Shown here piece by piece: positions 1 through 10,260 of a stretch of DNA of 14,927 bases (the first letter of the stretch is position 1; every line of letters starts with the position of its first letter). Source of the DNA: a virus (Duplodnaviria; Heunggongvirae; Uroviricota; Caudoviricetes); the IMG/VR virus record IMGVR_UViG_2667528045_000001; one strand, 5' to 3'. The position numbers were made by a program, and so were the translations under genes. Under the pieces are notes generated by a model that was not told the DNA's origin, made no database searches, and saw only the letters and a program-made list of their open reading frames with translations.

Positions 1-119
1 TATAACGAATGGCATCCGCATAGTGCACTGGGTTATCGCTCGCCACGGGAATATCTGCGGCAGCAGGCCAGTAATGGGTTAAGTGATAACAGGTGTCTGG
101 AAATATAGGGGCAAATCCA
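1..119 (+). mobile_element. Right end of IS2 (IS3 family): 3' end of the transposase ORF (frame 1, stop at 106-108, translated ...[33 protein letters not shown]) plus the terminal inverted repeat ending ...ggggcaaatcca at 119; the element runs off the window to the left
   Basis: Near-identical to the remembered IS2 right terminus (ttaagtgataacag.tgtctggaaatataggggcaaatcca) and to the InsD C-terminus; partial element only. Confidence 0.85.
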
Positions 120-274: not shown

Positions 275-799
275 ATGAAGTTATGGCCTGTGTTGACTGG
301 CATTGCACTCTCTTTCACTCTGATAGCATGTAAGGCCCCGACACCACCTAAAGGTGTGCAGCCGATTACAAATTTTGACACCAACCGCTACCTCGGAAAA
401 TGGTATGAAATAGCTCGGCTTGAGAACCGATTTGAACGTGGTCTGGAACAGGTCAGCGCCACTTATGGGAAACGGAACGACGGAGGGATTAGTGTACTTA
501 ATCGTGGATATGACCCAACGAAAAACAAATGGAGCGAGAGCGAAGGTAAAGCATACTTTACAGGAGATAATACAACTGCAGCGTTGAAGGTTTCGTTTTT
601 TGGCCCCTTCTATGGTGGCTATAATGTAATCAAACTGGATGATGAGTATAAGTATGCTCTTGTCAGTGGTCCGAACAGAGAATACCTATGGATTCTGGCA
701 CGGACTCCAACTATTCCAGATAATGTAAAAGCAGACTATGTGCGTACTGCTCAAAAATTGGGATTCAATGTCAATGAACTATTATGGGTCAAACAATAA
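275..799 (+). CDS. blc: Outer-membrane lipoprotein of the bacterial lipocalin (Blc) family
   Basis: Signal peptide with lipobox LIAC; lipocalin motifs GKWYEIAR and KVSFFGPFYGGYNVI, clearly similar to but diverged from remembered E. coli Blc; visibly AT-rich. Confidence 0.85.
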   Translation: MKLWPVLTGIALSFTLIACKAPTPPKGVQPITNFDTNRYLGKWYEIARLENRFERGLEQVSATYGKRNDGGISVLNRGYDPTKNKWSESEGKAYFTGDNTTAALKVSFFGPFYGGYNVIKLDDEYKYALVSGPNREYLWILARTPTIPDNVKADYVRTAQKLGFNVNELLWVKQ

Positions 800-5995: not shown

Positions 5996-6002
5996 GTGTT
6001 AC

Positions 6003-6230
6003 TTATGCTGCCAGAAGGTTCTTTTTGCTTATTTCAAGCATTTCGCTTGCTTGATATTTGCCACCAGAAATCTCTTCGATTTTTGATGCGTATTTCGTTT
6101 TCCCAAAAAACTCAGTCTTAGGGAGGAAGCCGTTTTTGAGCCACTTATAGACAGCCCTTTCGCTAACTCCACAAGCCTTCGCAACTTCAGGGATGCCGAC
6201 ACCTTTAATCGGCTCATCAAGATTTTGCAT
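6003..6230 (-). CDS. cro: Cro-like repressor (start at MQNLDEPIKG, ATG 6230)
   Basis: Small HTH protein (GIPEVAKACGVSERAVYKWLKNG) divergent from cI; AAGGA RBS before 6230; the longer start at 6263 would lie upstream of the PR transcription start. Confidence 0.75.
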   Translation of the reverse strand: MQNLDEPIKGVGIPEVAKACGVSERAVYKWLKNGFLPKTEFFGKTKYASKIEEISGGKYQASEMLEISKKNLLAA

Positions 6231-6308
6231 AGGAATGTCCTTTTTCGTACTTTCAGTACGCATTATGGTTGAACTGAAAGTTTTTGCAAGTGCTTTAGTA
6301 TCGTACTC
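6231..6308. promoter_or_regulatory. OR/PR/PRM switch region: PR on the minus strand (-35 TTGCAA at 6284-6289, -10 CATAAT at 6262-6267) and palindromic operators at about 6246-6260 (cgtactttcagtacg), 6272-6282 (aactgaaagtt) and 6297-6307 (agtatcgtact)
   Basis: Divergent cI/cro arrangement with three dyad-symmetric sites read directly; the cI ATG lies 7-8 nt after a TAGTAT-like -10, suggesting leaderless PRM mRNA as in lambda. Confidence 0.65.
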
Positions 6309-7016
6309 ATGGTTCAGAATGAAAAAGTGCGCAAAGAATTCGCCCAGCGGCTAGCGCAAGCCTGTAAAGAAGCTGGTCTTGATGAACATGGTAGGGGAAT
6401 GGCCATAGCCCGTGCCCTTTCTCTTTCGTCCAAAGGCGTTAGCAAATGGTTTAATGCTGAGTCTTTACCACGCCAGGAAAAAATGAATGCGCTTGCGAAA
6501 TTTCTAAACGTTGATGTTGTTTGGCTTCAGCACGGCACTTCGTTAAATGGAGCGAATGATGAAGATACTTTTTCAATTGTTGGCAAATTAAAAAAAGGGT
6601 TAGTGCGCGTGGTTGGTGAGGCAATTCTTGGTGTTGATGGTGCCATCGAGATGACCGAAGAGCGCGATGGGTGGCTCAAGATTTATAGCGATGATCCAGA
6701 TGCCTTTGGTCTTCGTGTAAAAGGAGACAGCATGTGGCCCAGAATAAAATCAGGAGAATATGTACTCATTGAGCCTAACACCAAAGTATTCCCAGGTGAT
6801 GAGGTGTTTGTCAGAACCATTGAAGGGCACAACATGATCAAGGTTCTTGGCTATGACAGAGACGGAGAATACCAATTTACAAGCATCAACCAAGACCACA
6901 GGCCAATAACGTTGCCTTATCATCAAGTAGCAAAGGTGGAGTATGTAGCTGGTATTCTGAAGCAATCTCGCCACCTAGATGACATCGAGGCCAGGGAATG
7001 GCTGAAAAGTTCATGA
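6309..7016 (+). CDS. cI: CI prophage repressor (N-terminal HTH, C-terminal LexA/S24-like autocleavage domain)
   Basis: HTH near the N-terminus; C-terminal GDSMWPRI serine motif and lysine typical of S24 peptidases; divergently arranged with cro. Confidence 0.9.
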   Translation: MVQNEKVRKEFAQRLAQACKEAGLDEHGRGMAIARALSLSSKGVSKWFNAESLPRQEKMNALAKFLNVDVVWLQHGTSLNGANDEDTFSIVGKLKKGLVRVVGEAILGVDGAIEMTEERDGWLKIYSDDPDAFGLRVKGDSMWPRIKSGEYVLIEPNTKVFPGDEVFVRTIEGHNMIKVLGYDRDGEYQFTSINQDHRPITLPYHQVAKVEYVAGILKQSRHLDDIEAREWLKSS

Positions 7017-7145
7017 CTTCATCATCACATAGCTAGTAACCAGTACGTTTGGATGGTGGTGAGAAACACACTGCAAGCAAACAGAAACATGGATATTAAA
7101 ATATTAGCTTAACACAGCAAATCGAAAGAAACAGCGAGGGCTCGG

Positions 7146-8045
7146 ATGTCCCAAGAATTATCTTTAACCTTTACCGAAAACATATATTATTCAACTAAAG
7201 AACCTGTAAGCATCAAAGATGTGATTACCTCCCTTCAAGGGTGGGAGGCCATCGCAAAACAATCAGAAGGTGTTTTGCAGGAACTGACAGGGGCTAATAT
7301 CCTTGATATATCGGTGCATGTTGCGCGATTAGAAGCAGGAAGCCTTTATGAAGATATTGTTATTAAACTCCTCTTTGGTAGCCAAGAAGAAATGGACAAG
7401 TTTCTTGCTGGCGCTCATGCAAAGATCGGAAATGGGAAAATGAGAAACGCTCTCGTTGGTGCTGTTGTTATTGGTCTGGTTGGATATGGCTTAGTTCTAG
7501 CAACTAAGGCTATGGCTCCAAGCAACACCTCCCACTTTGAAGCAAATAACAATACAATCATCAATATTGGTGCCGGTGAGGCTAATATTTCACCTGACCG
7601 TCTTCAAGCAATCATAGAAAGCACGGTAACCAATAAGAAGACTCTTGCCAAAAGTTCCATTAAGACGCTTGCCCCAGCTAGGGCAGACGAAGGATCTACG
7701 ATGGTCATAGGTACAGGGGGTGGTACAGTGACCATTCCCGCTGAAACCATTAAAAAAGCCCCAACTGAAGTTGTCTTCACACCAGAGTCATATACTCAGG
7801 ATCATTTTGATGTTGATGTTGAAATCCGTGCATTAGACCTCGACAATCCAGAGAAAGGTTGGGCTGCTGTTATCCCTGGATTAATAGATCGAAGAGTAAA
7901 TATGGTTCTTGGCCCCAACGTAAACCCATCAGATTTTGCAGGTAAATTTTCTGTACGTGCTGATATAACAATAACGTACCAGCTCAAATCATCAGATAAA
8001 AAATACCAACCGAAAGAAGTCTTTATAAAAGAAATAATCAAATAA
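7146..8045 (+). CDS. Unrecognised 299-aa protein with one central transmembrane helix in the rexAB-equivalent slot; candidate prophage-encoded exclusion/defence protein
   Basis: Long uninterrupted ORF with GAGGG RBS, co-oriented with and immediately downstream of cI, followed by a terminator; hydrophobic segment NALVGAVVIGLVGYGLVLATKAMA; AT-rich relative to the lambda-like neighbours; no match to any protein I recognise. Confidence 0.8.
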   Translation: MSQELSLTFTENIYYSTKEPVSIKDVITSLQGWEAIAKQSEGVLQELTGANILDISVHVARLEAGSLYEDIVIKLLFGSQEEMDKFLAGAHAKIGNGKMRNALVGAVVIGLVGYGLVLATKAMAPSNTSHFEANNNTIINIGAGEANISPDRLQAIIESTVTNKKTLAKSSIKTLAPARADEGSTMVIGTGGGTVTIPAETIKKAPTEVVFTPESYTQDHFDVDVEIRALDLDNPEKGWAAVIPGLIDRRVNMVLGPNVNPSDFAGKFSVRADITITYQLKSSDKKYQPKEVFIKEIIK

Positions 8046-8051
8046 TTATAC

Positions 8052-8077
8052 CCGGCCTCAGCGCCGGTTTTTCTTTT
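8052..8077 (+). terminator. Rho-independent terminator ending the cI operon (tImm-like)
   Basis: Stem ccggc (8052-8056) / gccgg (8063-8067) followed by tttttctttt. Confidence 0.6.
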
Positions 8078-8239
8078 CCTCACGATCGTCTACCTTATTT
8101 AACATCCGCACATGTGCTAACCCACGAACTAACACGCCAGCAAACAATTCTTTCTCTCCTACTGACCAATCTTCAATCTTTACAAAAATAAATTCCTTTA
8201 CATATCAAAAACATATCTCATTAAGTTAATGAACCACAA

Positions 8240-8295
8240 ACAATTCGTACTTATAGTTCTTGATAATATCGAACTATTGGTTCATTATAATCGCC
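8240..8295 (+). promoter_or_regulatory. OL/PL region: candidate -35 TTGATA (8260-8265) and -10 CATTAT (8283-8288); operator-like dyads cgtacttatagtt (8246-8258) and aactattggtt (8271-8281)
   Basis: Same ACT-N3-AGT dyad pattern as in OR; located upstream of nutL and N. Confidence 0.5.
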
Positions 8296-8335
8296 ATCAG
8301 CAGGACGCTGGCAGCCAAACGGAACAGATTGGCAG

Positions 8336-8369
8336 GCTCTTTAACTTCGATGATGCGCTGACAAAGCGC
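8336..8369 (+). promoter_or_regulatory. nutL: boxA GCTCTTTAA (8336-8344) and boxB hairpin GCGCTGACAAAGCGC (8355-8369)
   Basis: Read directly; boxB is a perfect 5-bp stem with a 5-nt loop and matches the remembered P22 nutL boxB. Confidence 0.75.
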
Positions 8370-8487
8370 GAACAGATACCAAACGAGATGGGTTTGGGGT
8401 GATGTGAATTGCAGCAGTAACGACAGCAACCAGAAGATCAGCATCTGGCGCATCACCACCAAAGCCATTTCACATGAGGAAAACATC

Positions 8488-8796
8488 ATGACGGTAATCG
8501 TGTACGGAAAATCAACATTTGCAGGAAATGCCAAAACTCGCCGTCATGAGCGGCGCAGAAAGCTGGCCATCGAGCGTGATTCCATCTGCAACATCATCGA
8601 TTCGATCTTCGGCACAGACAGTGAGGAACCTGTTCAGGAAGACCCGAGAAAGCGGTTAAGCCTTTCTGAAAAAGCAATATCACTCGGAAGCCTTCGCTGC
8701 AAGAAAGTAGATGAATGCAGTGGAAGTGTTTGCCTGCCAAACGTAGCTATTTACGCGGCAGGCTACCGGAAATCAAAACAACTGACGGCGAGATGA
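8488..8796 (+). CDS. N: Antiterminator N, P22 gene-24 type, with arginine-rich motif
   Basis: Translation from MTVIVYGKSTFAGNAKTRRHERRRKLAIERD matches the remembered P22 N; GAGGA RBS at 8476-8480; lies downstream of nutL. Confidence 0.85.
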   Translation: MTVIVYGKSTFAGNAKTRRHERRRKLAIERDSICNIIDSIFGTDSEEPVQEDPRKRLSLSEKAISLGSLRCKKVDECSGSVCLPNVAIYAAGYRKSKQLTAR

Positions 8797-8812
8797 TAAA
8801 TTCATTTGCTAA

Positions 8813-9394
8813 TTACTTGTTTTTGTCATGCTTATCCTGAGCGATAAGTTCATCCATAAGACTGTCTTTCTTCCCAGCAAACCTAATGTAGCACTCATTT
8901 CTATAGCGTTCCGGGATAACAAAACGGTCGATTTCAGGATATCCAGTAGCAGAAGGTACCCGAATAAGAAGCCCTTTTTCGAGCAATGAGATTGCTTCAG
9001 GGCTTCCCTTTTCTGTCTTTAGCTGGTTATTAGCGGCTACAGCGAATGCCAAATACGCTCTTTCTCCAAGAGTTAACGAATCAAACAAATCTTGCACGTA
9101 TTTCTCTTCTTTAGATTTGCGCTTCTGAGCAGCGAATATCTCAATTCTTACAGTCACAGCGTGATAAGCGGAATTAACAACGCCGTTAAGCACATAGCTA
9201 ACGCAAAACAACAGGATGTAATACATCCAGTAATGAGGAAGGATTTCTGGATTATGCAGGTTTATCCATTCTTTTACGCTTACAGGCATAACAATAATCA
9301 ATATGATCAGGATGATTAGCATATGAATCAACTGTTTAAGTGTCATTCCTTGCAGGAAAAAATGCATTAGTTCCTGCCACCATGAGTTGTTCAT
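8813..9394 (-). CDS. sieB: SieB-like superinfection exclusion membrane protein
   Basis: Two N-terminal hydrophobic helices and a C-terminal region (FAAQKRKSKEEK...RVPSATGYPEIDRFVIPERYRNECYIRFAGK) that fits my recollection of the SieB family; convergent with N. Confidence 0.55.
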   Translation of the reverse strand: MNNSWWQELMHFFLQGMTLKQLIHMLIILIILIIVMPVSVKEWINLHNPEILPHYWMYYILLFCVSYVLNGVVNSAYHAVTVRIEIFAAQKRKSKEEKYVQDLFDSLTLGERAYLAFAVAANNQLKTEKGSPEAISLLEKGLLIRVPSATGYPEIDRFVIPERYRNECYIRFAGKKDSLMDELIAQDKHDKNK

Positions 9395-10023: not shown

Positions 10024-10095
10024 GCGCGGCGTTACCGCATACCAATAACGCTTCACTCGAGGCGTTTTTCGTTATGTATAAATAAGGAGCACACC

Positions 10096-10260
10096 ATGCA
10101 ATATGCCATTGCAGGGTGGCCTGTTGCTGGCTGCCCTTCCGAATCTTTACTTGAACGAATCACCCGTAAATTACGTGACGGATGGAAACGCCTTATCGAC
10201 ATACTTAATCAGCCAGGAGTCCCAAAAAATGGATCAAACACTTATGGCTATCCAGACTAA
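10096..10260 (+). CDS. cIII: CIII (FtsH inhibitor stabilising CII), 54 aa
   Basis: Below the ORF-track length cutoff; manual translation from ATG 10096 gives [54 protein letters not shown], matching remembered lambda CIII; AAGGAG RBS. Confidence 0.9.
   Translation: MQYAIAGWPVAGCPSESLLERITRKLRDGWKRLIDILNQPGVPKNGSNTYGYPD

What the first reader, a model, noticed from the sequence alone, without database searches (positions are those of the whole stretch)
7146..8045. Unrecognised 299-aa membrane protein in the cI-downstream (rexAB-equivalent) slot
In lambda the slot between cI and OL/PL holds rexA-rexB, a lysogen-expressed exclusion system, and this position is a known variable cargo site in lambdoid phages. 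Here it holds a single ORF that is co-oriented with cI, has its own RBS and is followed by a terminator at 8052-8077. It resembles neither RexA nor RexB nor anything else I recognise. It is much more AT-rich than the flanking lambda-identical genes, which suggests recent acquisition. It has one central hydrophobic helix (about residues 100-124) with K/R on the N-terminal side, predicting a cytoplasmic N-domain of about 95 aa and an extracytoplasmic C-domain of about 175 aa containing a Gly/Thr-rich stretch (IGTGGGTVTIPAETIKK). That topology would fit a superinfection-exclusion or abortive-infection protein acting at the envelope, but this is inference from position and composition only.
Basis: partly seen in the sequence, partly recalled or inferred. 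Interest (0 to 1): 0.85.

Follow-up and report, generated by a model that had tools for sequence, protein, structure and literature searches.

The report
Uncharacterised membrane protein riding prophage repressor operons
A real, well-conserved 299-residue single-pass membrane protein of unknown function sits right behind the phage repressor gene, a position it also takes behind unrelated repressors in many other prophages, which makes it a good but untested candidate for a new protein that protects the lysogen against other phages.

Summary
ORF 7146-8045 (+) encodes 299 aa. It has a GAGG ribosome-binding site, follows cI with no terminator in between, and ends at an intrinsic terminator (8052-8077) upstream of OL/PL and N.

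The window is 100% identical to Escherichia phage 1H12 (Jouyvirus), where the gene is annotated as hypothetical. The protein is under strong purifying selection (dN/dS 0.02-0.10). It has one hydrophobic helix, and charge asymmetry predicts N-in/C-out.

It belongs to a closed family of about 660 clusters, all near 300 aa, known only as PHROG 4506 (unknown function). Nothing significant matched in Pfam, NCBIfam, PADLOC or the PDB, by sequence or by fold. The C-terminal domain is a generic OB-like barrel.

The new finding is synteny. In 22 of 54 non-redundant loci the gene lies immediately downstream of, and co-oriented with, a highly divergent HTH or S24 repressor. The remaining loci are other accessory slots: Q-lysis, Mu-like late region, and P4-like or P2-like elements. 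The shared DNA is a roughly 1-kb unit of leader, ORF and terminator with no recognisable promoter. Stx2a phages with near-identical flanks carry other cargo at this position.

Function is inferred only. I favour superinfection exclusion at the inner membrane (0.35), then abortive infection (0.25).

The parts
6003..6263 (-). cro-type HTH gene, divergent from cI. OR lies in the 6231/6264-6308 gap, with an operator-like palindrome at 6246-6260.
   Evidence: annotated 6004-6231 in phage 1H12; palindrome and repeat.
6309..7016 (+). cI-type repressor (HTH_3 plus Peptidase_S24), of the immunity type shared with Stx2a-converting phages. Presumed promoter donor (PRM/PRE) for the ORF downstream.
   Evidence: Pfam match; 97.8% DNA identity to an Stx2a-converting phage up to position 7044.
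7017..7145 (+). Spacer and leader. The scan found no terminator-like and no sigma-70 promoter-like site. RBS GAGG is at 7136-7139.
7084..8080 (+). Shared DNA unit (short leader, ORF, terminator) found behind different repressors in Edwardsiella, Kluyvera and IMG/VR contigs. Similarity begins between 7084 and 7110 and ends between 8072 and 8080.
   Evidence: blastn of the window against L013, L014, L046 and L048 gave 81-95% identity.
7045..8178 (+). Segment replaced in Stx2a-converting phages that share both flanks. They carry a DUF3024 ORF and an NYN-domain ORF instead.
7146..8045 (+). The 299-aa ORF (PHROG 4506; RefSeq WP_000076840.1, 'hypothetical protein').
   Evidence: purifying selection.
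7146..7439 (+). N-terminal alpha/beta domain (aa 1-98; strand-helix-strand-strand-helix), predicted cytoplasmic. G65 and S66 are nearly invariant.
   Evidence: AlphaFold2 model, block pLDDT mostly 85-92 (76 for residues 1-10); conservation; charge bias.
7449..7508 (+). Single transmembrane helix (aa 102-121, ALVGAVVIGLVGYGLVLATK), with small-xxx-small spacing.
   Evidence: KD>1.6 in 115 of 133 members; small-xxx-small in 122 of 133.
7542..7580 (+). Juxtamembrane motif ANNNTIINIGAGE (aa 133-145). Six of its thirteen residues are invariant and five more at least 90% conserved among the closer 35 homologues; conservation is 30-70% across the wider family.
7701..8042 (+). C-terminal beta-rich domain (aa 186-299), predicted periplasmic, OB-like barrel. 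P206, A229, D231, D233, G238, W239 and R250 are nearly invariant or invariant.
8052..8077 (+). Intrinsic terminator (CCGGC-CTCAGC-GCCGG followed by a T-run) closing the cI-ORF transcription unit before OL/PL.
   Evidence: It is part of the conserved shared unit.
8244..8288 (+). OL/PL region: an operator-like sequence 86% identical (12/14) to one in OR (8244-8257) and a promoter-like site (TTGATA-17-CATTAT, 8260-8288).
8489..8796 (+). N antiterminator gene, the first gene of the leftward early operon.
   Evidence: Pfam N_peptide E=1e-40; annotation.

Best explanation
The ORF is a lysogen-expressed accessory cassette: a short leader, one gene and an intrinsic terminator, with no recognisable promoter of its own. 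It is plugged into the repressor transcription unit, so it should be made whenever cI is made.

Its product is a bitopic inner-membrane protein. An alpha/beta domain of about 95 aa sits in the cytoplasm, followed by one transmembrane helix. About 175 aa lie in the periplasm: a short helical region and then an OB-like beta-barrel.

I think the most likely role is superinfection exclusion at the inner membrane. In this reading the periplasmic domain interferes with the channel that incoming tailed phages build to pass DNA across the cytoplasmic membrane, or with the host inner-membrane component they use. This would resemble what P22 SieA does, achieved with an unrelated protein.

What is shown: the gene, its signals, its topology signature, its conservation and its recurrent synteny.

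What is inferred: co-transcription with cI, the localisation, and the entire anti-phage function and mechanism.
For: Expression logic. The ORF is co-oriented 129 bp after cI, with no terminator or promoter-like site in between and a terminator straight after it. The DNA shared with other hosts starts only 36-62 bp before the ATG and ends at the terminator. As far as the consensus scan shows, the unit therefore depends on an upstream promoter.

Recurrent synteny. In 22 of 54 non-redundant loci the nearest upstream gene is a co-oriented HTH-family repressor homologue, and in 4 more it is the second upstream gene. Pfam confirms HTH_3 in 19 and Peptidase_S24 in 16 of the 40 upstream neighbours scanned. 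These neighbours share only 11-31% identity with the window's cI. A Pseudomonas phage relative at 24% identity is likewise in the repressor operon.

A known cargo slot. Stx2a-converting phages with 93-98% identical flanks carry DUF3024 plus NYN genes here. The literature describes the cI-N interval as a mosaic hotspot that holds rexAB in lambda and bstA in BTP1, with bstA likewise conserved downstream of repressors (PMC8585504).

Other accessory slots. Remaining contexts include:
- the Q-to-lysis interval (L009, L053, L061, L082);
- Mu-like phages, before the head protease or the lysozyme gene (L005, L008, L083);
- P4-like or mobilisable elements (L004, L081);
- a P2-like prophage end (L084).
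No conserved partner gene was found.

Envelope placement. There is one TM helix with a positive-inside bias conserved in 90% of 133 representatives. The large, conserved, folded extracytoplasmic domain argues that the action is in the periplasm or at the inner membrane. [quoted passage not shown]

Late-operon copies. A Q-holin copy on the same strand (L082) and a copy in a Mu-like head operon are easier to reconcile with a harmless entry block than with a suicide effector.

Weak association with defence genes. One relative lies 535 bp upstream of, and co-oriented with, DUF499/DUF3780/DUF1156 genes that match PADLOC models.
Against: There is no phenotype, and no homology to any characterised exclusion or defence protein. 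PADLOC gave nothing at E<=1 for the window protein, and PHROG 4506 has no assigned function.

Known exclusion proteins tend to be small, fast-evolving and narrow in range. This family keeps invariant residues in both domains from E. coli to cyanobacterial phages and evolves under strong constraint (dN/dS 0.02-0.10, with no hypervariable patch). That pattern fits an enzyme-like or signalling mechanism better.

A conserved 95-aa cytoplasmic domain is not obviously needed for a periplasmic block.

Topology rests on hydropathy and charge bias only. The full-length model's pTM of 0.69 could mean that AlphaFold packs the two domains together, and I could not inspect this.

Most of the non-repressor contexts show phage or housekeeping genes, not defence islands.
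Confidence: 0.35

Rival explanations
1. Abortive-infection sensor and effector. The protein is inactive in the lysogen. On infection, one domain senses a phage cue: the periplasmic OB-like barrel could sense the ejection apparatus or DNA in transit, or the cytoplasmic domain could sense a phage product. The transmembrane helices then oligomerise and the membrane is depolarised, killing the cell before progeny are made. This would be a one-protein analogue of RexA/RexB.
For: The slot's characterised occupants, RexAB and BstA, are abortive-infection systems (PMC8585504). Both domains carry nearly invariant residues and are under strong purifying selection across phyla, which suggests a conserved intrinsic mechanism and signalling across the membrane. 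The TM helix has small-xxx-small spacing in 122 of 133 members, and a conserved Asn-rich juxtamembrane motif follows it. Both features are compatible with oligomerisation.
Against: No similarity to RexB, to the transmembrane effectors of CBASS or Pycsar, or to any PADLOC model beyond noise. Membrane effectors usually keep their sensor domain in the cytoplasm and have almost nothing outside, whereas here about 175 folded residues are predicted to lie outside. Copies in late operons would expose the carrier phage to its own suicide effector. No antitoxin-like or partner gene is conserved.
Confidence: 0.25
2. A lysogenic-conversion or host-fitness factor unrelated to phage defence. The envelope protein would change the host's cell-surface physiology, for example stress, bacteriocin, serum or bile tolerance, or envelope homeostasis. 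It would benefit the prophage indirectly, as lambda bor and lom are thought to.
For: The same accessory slots (cI-downstream and Q-lysis) also carry non-defence cargo. This window itself has a lipocalin (Blc-like) gene next to Q. The family is absent from defence databases. Most non-prophage neighbours are not defence genes. The gene is at 99% identity or more in about 2.7% of complete E. coli genomes, many from human isolates.
Against: The strong, repeated linkage to the repressor operon in unrelated phages of very different hosts, including environmental Nitrosomonas, Accumulibacter and Pseudomonas, argues for a function tied to phage biology and not to one host niche. No known virulence or fitness domain was detected.
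Confidence: 0.2
3. A function in the phage's own life cycle, such as modulating induction, the lysis-lysogeny decision or lysis timing from the membrane, and not protection of the host.
For: The gene is adjacent to the repressor in about half of the loci and adjacent to lysis genes in at least seven (L008, L009, L053, L061, L077, L082, L083). It shares the type II membrane topology of i-spanins.
Against: The gene is dispensable. Phages with near-identical flanks lack it, and only 11 of 271 phage records that match the 6000-8800 query carry it. It also occurs in satellites and mobilisable elements that have no lysis or immunity module of this kind. It has no similarity to holins, spanins or anti-repressors.
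Confidence: 0.1

Closest known systems
Lambda RexA/RexB (the cI-rexA-rexB operon)
   Same: Same genomic slot between cI and OL/PL. Co-oriented with cI and closed by a terminator before PL. Presumably expressed in the lysogen. A membrane component is involved.
   Different: RexAB is a two-gene system, with a polytopic membrane protein (RexB) and a cytoplasmic sensor (RexA). Here there is one gene with one TM helix. No Pfam RexA or RexB match at E<=1 and no conserved partner gene.
BstA of Salmonella prophage BTP1 (PMC8585504)
   Same: A single gene with its own Rho-independent terminator, lying downstream of the repressor and presumably sharing its promoter. That synteny is conserved across diverse Gram-negative prophages, and a minority of copies lie outside prophages.
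   Different: BstA is reported to localise to sites of phage DNA replication and to act by abortive infection (PMC8585504). The protein here has a transmembrane helix. No PADLOC family matched at E<=1.
P22 SieA (PMC10883804)
   Same: A prophage-expressed inner-membrane protein that acts alone. The proposed mode of action, blocking DNA delivery across the inner membrane, is the one I favour here.
   Different: SieA is 162-164 aa with three predicted TM helices and is encoded elsewhere in the P22 genome. This protein is 299 aa with one TM helix and two folded soluble domains. No similarity was found to any PHROG annotated as an exclusion protein. SieA's range is narrow, whereas this family spans several phyla.
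Membrane-anchored exclusion proteins with an external domain, such as lactococcal Sie2009, Streptococcus thermophilus Ltp and P1 Sim (from my own knowledge; Ltp is also in PMC3952083)
   Same: Encoded next to the lysogeny module and anchored in the membrane, with the bulk of the protein outside. They block DNA injection.
   Different: They come from different hosts and have unrelated sequences. They are smaller and have no cytoplasmic domain. No comparison with them was run here.
PHROG 4506
   Same: Full-length match, E=1e-170, residues 1-299 against profile positions 1-300. All 133 diverse representatives match it.
   Different: The PHROG has no functional annotation, so membership says nothing about function.

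Membership tests
PHROG 4506 (phage protein family, unknown function) | Full-length match to the family profile | tested here: met
   E=1e-170, residues 1-299 against profile positions 1-300 of 300. All 133 of 133 representatives match.
Lambda RexB / RexA | Sequence match to the Pfam RexA or RexB models | tested here: not met
   The Pfam scan at E<=1 returned only sub-threshold DUF1206, Bromo_TP_like and DUF3082.
Lambda RexB / RexA | Two-gene operon of a sensor plus a polytopic membrane protein | tested here: not met
   A single ORF lies between cI and the terminator. There is one hydrophobic segment only. No conserved neighbour apart from repressors.
Lambda RexB / RexA | Position downstream of cI, co-oriented, upstream of OL/PL | tested here: met
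P22 SieA | Inner-membrane protein of about 160 aa with three TM helices (PMC10883804) | tested here: not met
   299 aa with one TM segment. Localisation was not tested experimentally.
P22 SieA | Blocks DNA injection by superinfecting phages | not testable with these tools
   Needs plating, potassium-efflux and DNA-entry assays.
BstA | Sequence homology to BstA or another catalogued defence protein | tested here: not met
   PADLOC-DB v2 returned 0 families at E<=1 for the window protein. That this release contains a BstA model is my recollection and was not checked.
BstA | Conserved synteny immediately downstream of prophage repressors | tested here: met
   22 of 54 non-redundant loci, plus 4 where the repressor is the second upstream gene.
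PADLOC candidate PDC-S42 | Match to model PDLC05015 | tested here: inconclusive
   2 of 133 distant representatives match at E=5.9e-6. The window protein does not. The matching members were not identified.
OB-fold domains | Five-stranded closed beta-barrel with OB topology | tested here: inconclusive
Bitopic (type II, N-in/C-out) inner-membrane protein | One TM helix, positive-inside charge bias and no signal peptide | tested here: met
   KD 2.24 at residues 102-120. K+R is 4 against 0; the family means are 4.1 against 1.0. This is a prediction only. DeepTMHMM and fusion mapping were not done.

The most novel reading that the evidence does not exclude
PHROG 4506 may be a new, widespread single-protein anti-phage system with no relative among known defence or exclusion proteins. 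It would spread as a cassette with no recognisable promoter of its own that borrows the repressor promoter of whatever temperate phage it lands in, from enterobacteria to Pseudomonas, Nitrosomonas and cyanobacterial phages. It would work by outside-in signalling: a periplasmic OB-like domain detects the incoming ejection apparatus or DNA at the inner membrane, and a conserved cytoplasmic domain executes the response. That transmembrane sensing logic has not, to my knowledge, been described for phage defence.
Probability: 0.2. Interest if true: 0.8.

Novelty: new variant of a known kind. Interest (0 to 1): 0.5.

Why it matters
Genes parked behind prophage repressors are made in every lysogenic cell. 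Those that have been studied (rexAB, bstA) turned out to be anti-phage systems.

This family combines several useful properties:
- It is large (about 660 clusters at 50% identity) and architecturally uniform.
- Pfam, NCBIfam and PADLOC do not detect it.
- It has no solved-structure relative.
- It shows the same repressor-linked synteny as BstA, across very different hosts.
- It is present in about 2.7% of complete E. coli genomes.

That makes it a cheap, well-defined candidate for a new exclusion or defence mechanism acting at the inner membrane. One 1-kb clone and one phage panel would test it.

If the result is negative, the family still shows how cassettes with no recognisable promoter of their own, but carrying a terminator, can colonise repressor operons.

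Tried and rejected
Sequence-family searches:
- Pfam, NCBIfam and PADLOC on the window protein gave nothing above threshold.
- Pfam on 133 diverse members gave only scattered noise: at most 2 members per family, E>=0.0015.
- The UniRef name 'Baseplate protein J-like' on one Kluyvera homologue is not backed by any Pfam hit, so I disregarded it.
- A recalled resemblance of NNNTIINIGAG to YadA-head repeats was rejected: the Pfam scan listed no adhesin-head family among its matches at E<=1, and the motif is only 30-70% conserved family-wide.

Structure searches:
- PDB sequence searches with the single protein, the full profile and the C-domain profile found nothing below E=0.06.
- Foldseek against the PDB gave TM-scores of 0.21 or less when normalised by query length.
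- The AFDB library was unavailable.

Wider homology:
- A second search of the large protein database, using the 133-sequence profile, added no annotated or domain-fused relatives.
- There is no conserved downstream partner, so this is not a two-gene system.

PDC-S42 lead: ten guessed members, including the Pseudomonas and Leptolyngbya phage relatives, gave no PADLOC hit.

Literature:
- No paper mentions WP_000076840, A0A234Z8H0, phrog_4506 or PDC-S42.
- The accession is not in the held DefensePredictor supplements.
- GiPD474 (Gifsy-1) is an ATPase-domain protein and is unrelated.
- svsR (NC-SV prophage) lies at the 3' end of a cI gene and concerns a different element.

Other:
- Rfam finds no RNA family in 7000-8400.
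- 'Recent acquisition shown by AT-richness' is rejected.
Full report
1. What is in the sequence

GAGG at 7136-7139 precedes the ATG by 6 nt.

Upstream, a 235-aa HTH_3 plus Peptidase_S24 repressor (6309-7016, +) faces a divergent cro-type gene (6003-6263, -). In the 129-bp gap between cI and the ORF, the consensus scan finds neither a terminator-like nor a sigma-70-like site. Directly after the ORF it finds CCGGC-CTCAGC-GCCGG followed by TTTTTCTTTT at 8052-8077.

Downstream lie three landmarks. An operator-like sequence at 8244-8257 is 86% identical (12/14) to one at 6244-6257 in OR. A promoter-like site lies at 8260-8288. The N gene carries Pfam N_peptide (E=1e-40; annotated 8489-8796).

The whole window is 100% identical to Escherichia phage 1H12 (Jouyvirus) and ten sibling 'Lambda_ev/2E9/4B5' genomes, where the gene (gp50) is annotated as hypothetical. 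The cassette is present at 99% identity or more in 149 of 5426 complete E. coli genomes, as WP_000076840.1, 'hypothetical protein'.

2. Is it a real gene?

Yes. Codon-level comparison with orthologues in Edwardsiella, Kluyvera and an IMG/VR contig gives dN/dS of 0.10, 0.05 and 0.02. In more distant pairs pN is 0.08-0.16 against a saturated pS. The constraint holds in each of four segments: N-domain, TM plus motif, linker, and C-domain. The short ORFs on the opposite strand are therefore most likely incidental.

- GC of the ORF is 41.2%. The neighbours are cI 45.3%, cro 42.1%, N 49.0% and the sieB-like gene 39.9%; the window as a whole is 46.1%. The ORF is not an outlier among its immediate neighbours, so composition does not argue for recent acquisition.
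- The immediate flanks are the immunity type shared with Stx2a-converting phages (cro is annotated as 933W Cro), not lambda's.
- The Gly/Thr stretch (residues 188-204) falls in the most gapped and variable part of the family alignment and has no significance that I can see.

4. The protein

There is one strongly hydrophobic segment (residues 102-120, KD 2.24) and no second one in any of 133 family representatives. Lys plus Arg number 4 in the 17 residues before it and 0 in the 17 after. Across the family the means are 4.1 and 1.0, with N>C in 90% of members. With no signal peptide, this predicts a type II orientation, N-in and C-out.

AlphaFold2 with a 35-sequence alignment gives mean pLDDT 84.5 and pTM 0.69. 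The model has three parts:
- an N-terminal strand-helix-strand-strand-helix domain (residues 5-94);
- the TM helix (102-123);
- four short helices (125-179), followed by a beta-rich C-terminal domain (186-297).

Among the closer homologues, six of the thirteen residues of the juxtamembrane sequence ANNNTIINIGAGE are invariant and five more are at least 90% conserved. Across the wider family the motif is only 30-70% conserved. The residues that stay nearly invariant over 133 representatives are G65 and S66 in an N-domain hairpin, P177, and A229, D231, D233, G238, W239 and R250 in the C-domain. Both sides of the membrane therefore carry conserved, presumably functional, surfaces.

5. Homology and fold

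- Pfam, NCBIfam and PADLOC gave nothing for the window protein.
- PHROGs gave a full-length match to phrog_4506, which has no assigned function.
- The 5.8-billion-protein search returned 56 clusters, all 294-331 aa apart from five truncated or partial entries, none with a Pfam domain and all 'hypothetical'.
- The exhaustive profile search returned 662 representatives at E<=0.001. Among the 150 listed, most are 290-340 aa and all match in a single stretch.
- A second word-indexed search with the 133-sequence profile added nothing annotated.
- PDB sequence searches with the single protein, the family profile and the C-domain profile found nothing.
- Foldseek against the PDB gave TM-scores of 0.21 or less when normalised by query length.

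The AFDB libraries were not available. The family is thus a self-contained, uncharacterised fold combination.

6. Genomic context: the main new result

I collected 84 loci in all. ORFs were called on the 78 loci held by then plus the window. After removing duplicates, 54 distinct contexts remained.

In 22 of them the nearest upstream gene is co-oriented, at most 204 bp away, and belongs to one BLAST-linked cluster of HTH regulators. In 4 more that gene is the second one upstream. Pfam scanning of the 40 credible upstream neighbours finds HTH_3 in 19, Peptidase_S24 in 16 and Phage_CI_repr in 8. These neighbours are only 11-31% identical to the window's cI, and the replication modules next to them differ: lambda O/P here, DnaT with lambda-P-like genes in Pectobacterium, primase and helicase in Citrobacter.

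A Pseudomonas phage relative at 24% identity is the third gene of a repressor operon.

The remaining contexts are other classical accessory positions:
- between the Q antiterminator and the lysis genes, on either strand (L009, L053, L061, L082);
- just upstream of the head protease, or near the lysozyme gene, in Mu-like phages (L005/L006, L008, L083);
- in a P4-like element and in a mobilisable element (L004, L081);
- next to gpD at the end of a P2-like prophage (L084).

No downstream partner gene is conserved.

Among loci without an upstream repressor, neighbours are mostly phage genes (integrase, portal, capsid, tail) or housekeeping genes. Several neighbours match PADLOC models. The clearest case is L025, where the family gene lies 535 bp upstream of, and co-oriented with, genes matching DUF499, DUF3780 and DUF1156 models.

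7. The shared unit

DNA similarity between the window and close homologues that sit behind different repressors begins at 7084-7110 and ends at 8072-8080. It therefore covers a leader of 36-62 bp, the ORF and the terminator. No promoter-like site was found in that leader.

Against an Stx2a-converting phage, identity (97.8%) stops at 7044 and resumes (93.2%) at 8179. In between, that phage carries a DUF3024 ORF and an NYN-domain ORF. Only 11 of the 271 phage records that match the 6000-8800 query contain this cassette.

This is a textbook cargo swap. The cassette appears to rely on the host phage's repressor promoter and brings its own stop signal, which would protect PL from read-through.

8. 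How it most likely works

Shown: the gene, its signals, the topology signature, the conservation and the synteny.

Inferred: transcription with cI in the lysogen, inner-membrane localisation with the C-domain in the periplasm, and any function at all.

The literature describes the cI-N interval as a mosaic hotspot that holds rexAB in lambda and bstA in BTP1. BstA shows the same 'downstream of the repressor, presumably sharing its promoter' synteny across Gram-negative prophages (PMC8585504). P22 SieA shows that a single inner-membrane protein can block DNA delivery (PMC10883804).

On that basis I rank the readings as follows.

(a) Superinfection exclusion at the inner membrane, 0.35. The large folded periplasmic domain puts the action where incoming phages assemble their DNA conduit. 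Copies in late operons are harmless under this model.

(b) Abortive-infection sensor and effector, 0.25. This is favoured by strong conservation of both domains across phyla, by small-xxx-small spacing in the TM helix and by the precedents in this slot. It is disfavoured by the large external domain, by the late-operon copies and by the lack of any similarity to known membrane effectors.

(c) A host-fitness or lysogenic-conversion factor, 0.2.

(d) A role in the phage's own regulation or lysis, 0.1. This is weakened by the gene's dispensability in phages with the same flanks and by its presence in satellites.

9. Comparison with known systems, and novelty

The protein works in the place of RexAB and shows the synteny of BstA, but it is not a member of either family. 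Sequence, gene number and architecture tests all fail (see the membership table). It is a member of PHROG 4506, which carries no functional information.

Two of 133 distant relatives hit the PADLOC candidate model PDC-S42 at E=5.9e-6. I could not locate those members, so this remains an open lead.

No paper in the held library mentions the protein, the PHROG or PDC-S42. The accession is not in the held DefensePredictor supplements.

I therefore class it as a new variant of a known kind: a repressor-linked prophage accessory or exclusion gene built from an undescribed protein family.

10. Verdict

Interest is 0.5. Uncharacterised cargo in this slot would not surprise a specialist. However, the breadth and fidelity of the repressor linkage, the absence of any detectable relative and the simplicity of the decisive experiment make this a worthwhile candidate.

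Noticed in passing
window 8813-9394 (-): A SieB-family superinfection-exclusion gene (Pfam SieB E=3e-25; PHROG 1301) lies just beyond N. The same immunity-left region therefore already carries one recognised exclusion gene besides the ORF studied.
   Followed up: partly
window 10083-10141 (+): Rfam Lambda_thermo (the cIII thermoregulator RNA element) matches at 88.5 bits, E=7e-21. It was the only Rfam hit in the window at gathering threshold.
   Followed up: no
window 275-799 (+) and 1-83 (-): A bacterial lipocalin (Blc-like; Pfam Lipocalin_2, E=2e-43) and a YbgA-like gene fragment sit next to the Q antiterminator gene (956-1348, -). They look like further accessory cargo in the Q-proximal slot of this phage.
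   Followed up: partly
L080 2578-2919 and 3067-3924 (Stx2a-converting phage Stx2_EH1965): Phages with the same cI and N flanks carry a DUF3024 protein (113 aa) and an NYN-domain protein (285 aa) in the slot instead. This pair is also uncharacterised as far as these searches show.
   Followed up: partly
alignment A2 (133 family representatives): Two unidentified distant members match the PADLOC 'phage defence candidate' model PDC-S42 at E=5.9e-6, and two match Pfam ApeA_NTD1 at E=0.007. It is not known whether these are the same proteins, or which region matches.
   Followed up: partly
L025 2677-10055 (Motiliproteus MAG): The family gene lies 535 bp upstream of, and co-oriented with, three genes matching PADLOC/Pfam DUF499, DUF3780 and DUF1156 (methyltransferase) models, a candidate DNA-modification defence cluster.
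   Followed up: partly
L004 5747-5911 and L084 783-977: A small YdcA-family gene (PF27300) lies just upstream of the family gene in a Serratia P4-like element (directly) and at a P2-like prophage end (one gene between). This could be an occasional companion gene.
   Followed up: no
window 8274-8534 (-): An ORF on the strand opposite PL and the start of N is annotated as a hypothetical protein in phage 1H12 and in RefSeq genomes. It overlaps the PL promoter region and is probably not a real gene. This was not tested.
   Followed up: no
E. coli NZ_CP090319.1, 2225149-2227009: In one complete genome the cassette is interrupted by an IS1B element. Truncated forms of 105-164 aa also recur in the protein cluster, so the gene is occasionally inactivated.
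   Followed up: no
window 6900-7016 (3' end of cI): A 2026 paper reports a small RNA (svsR) encoded at the 3' end of the cI gene of the lambdoid prophage NC-SV that limits phage infection (PMC12803456). I did not test whether this cI carries an equivalent. Rfam shows nothing here at gathering threshold.
   Followed up: no
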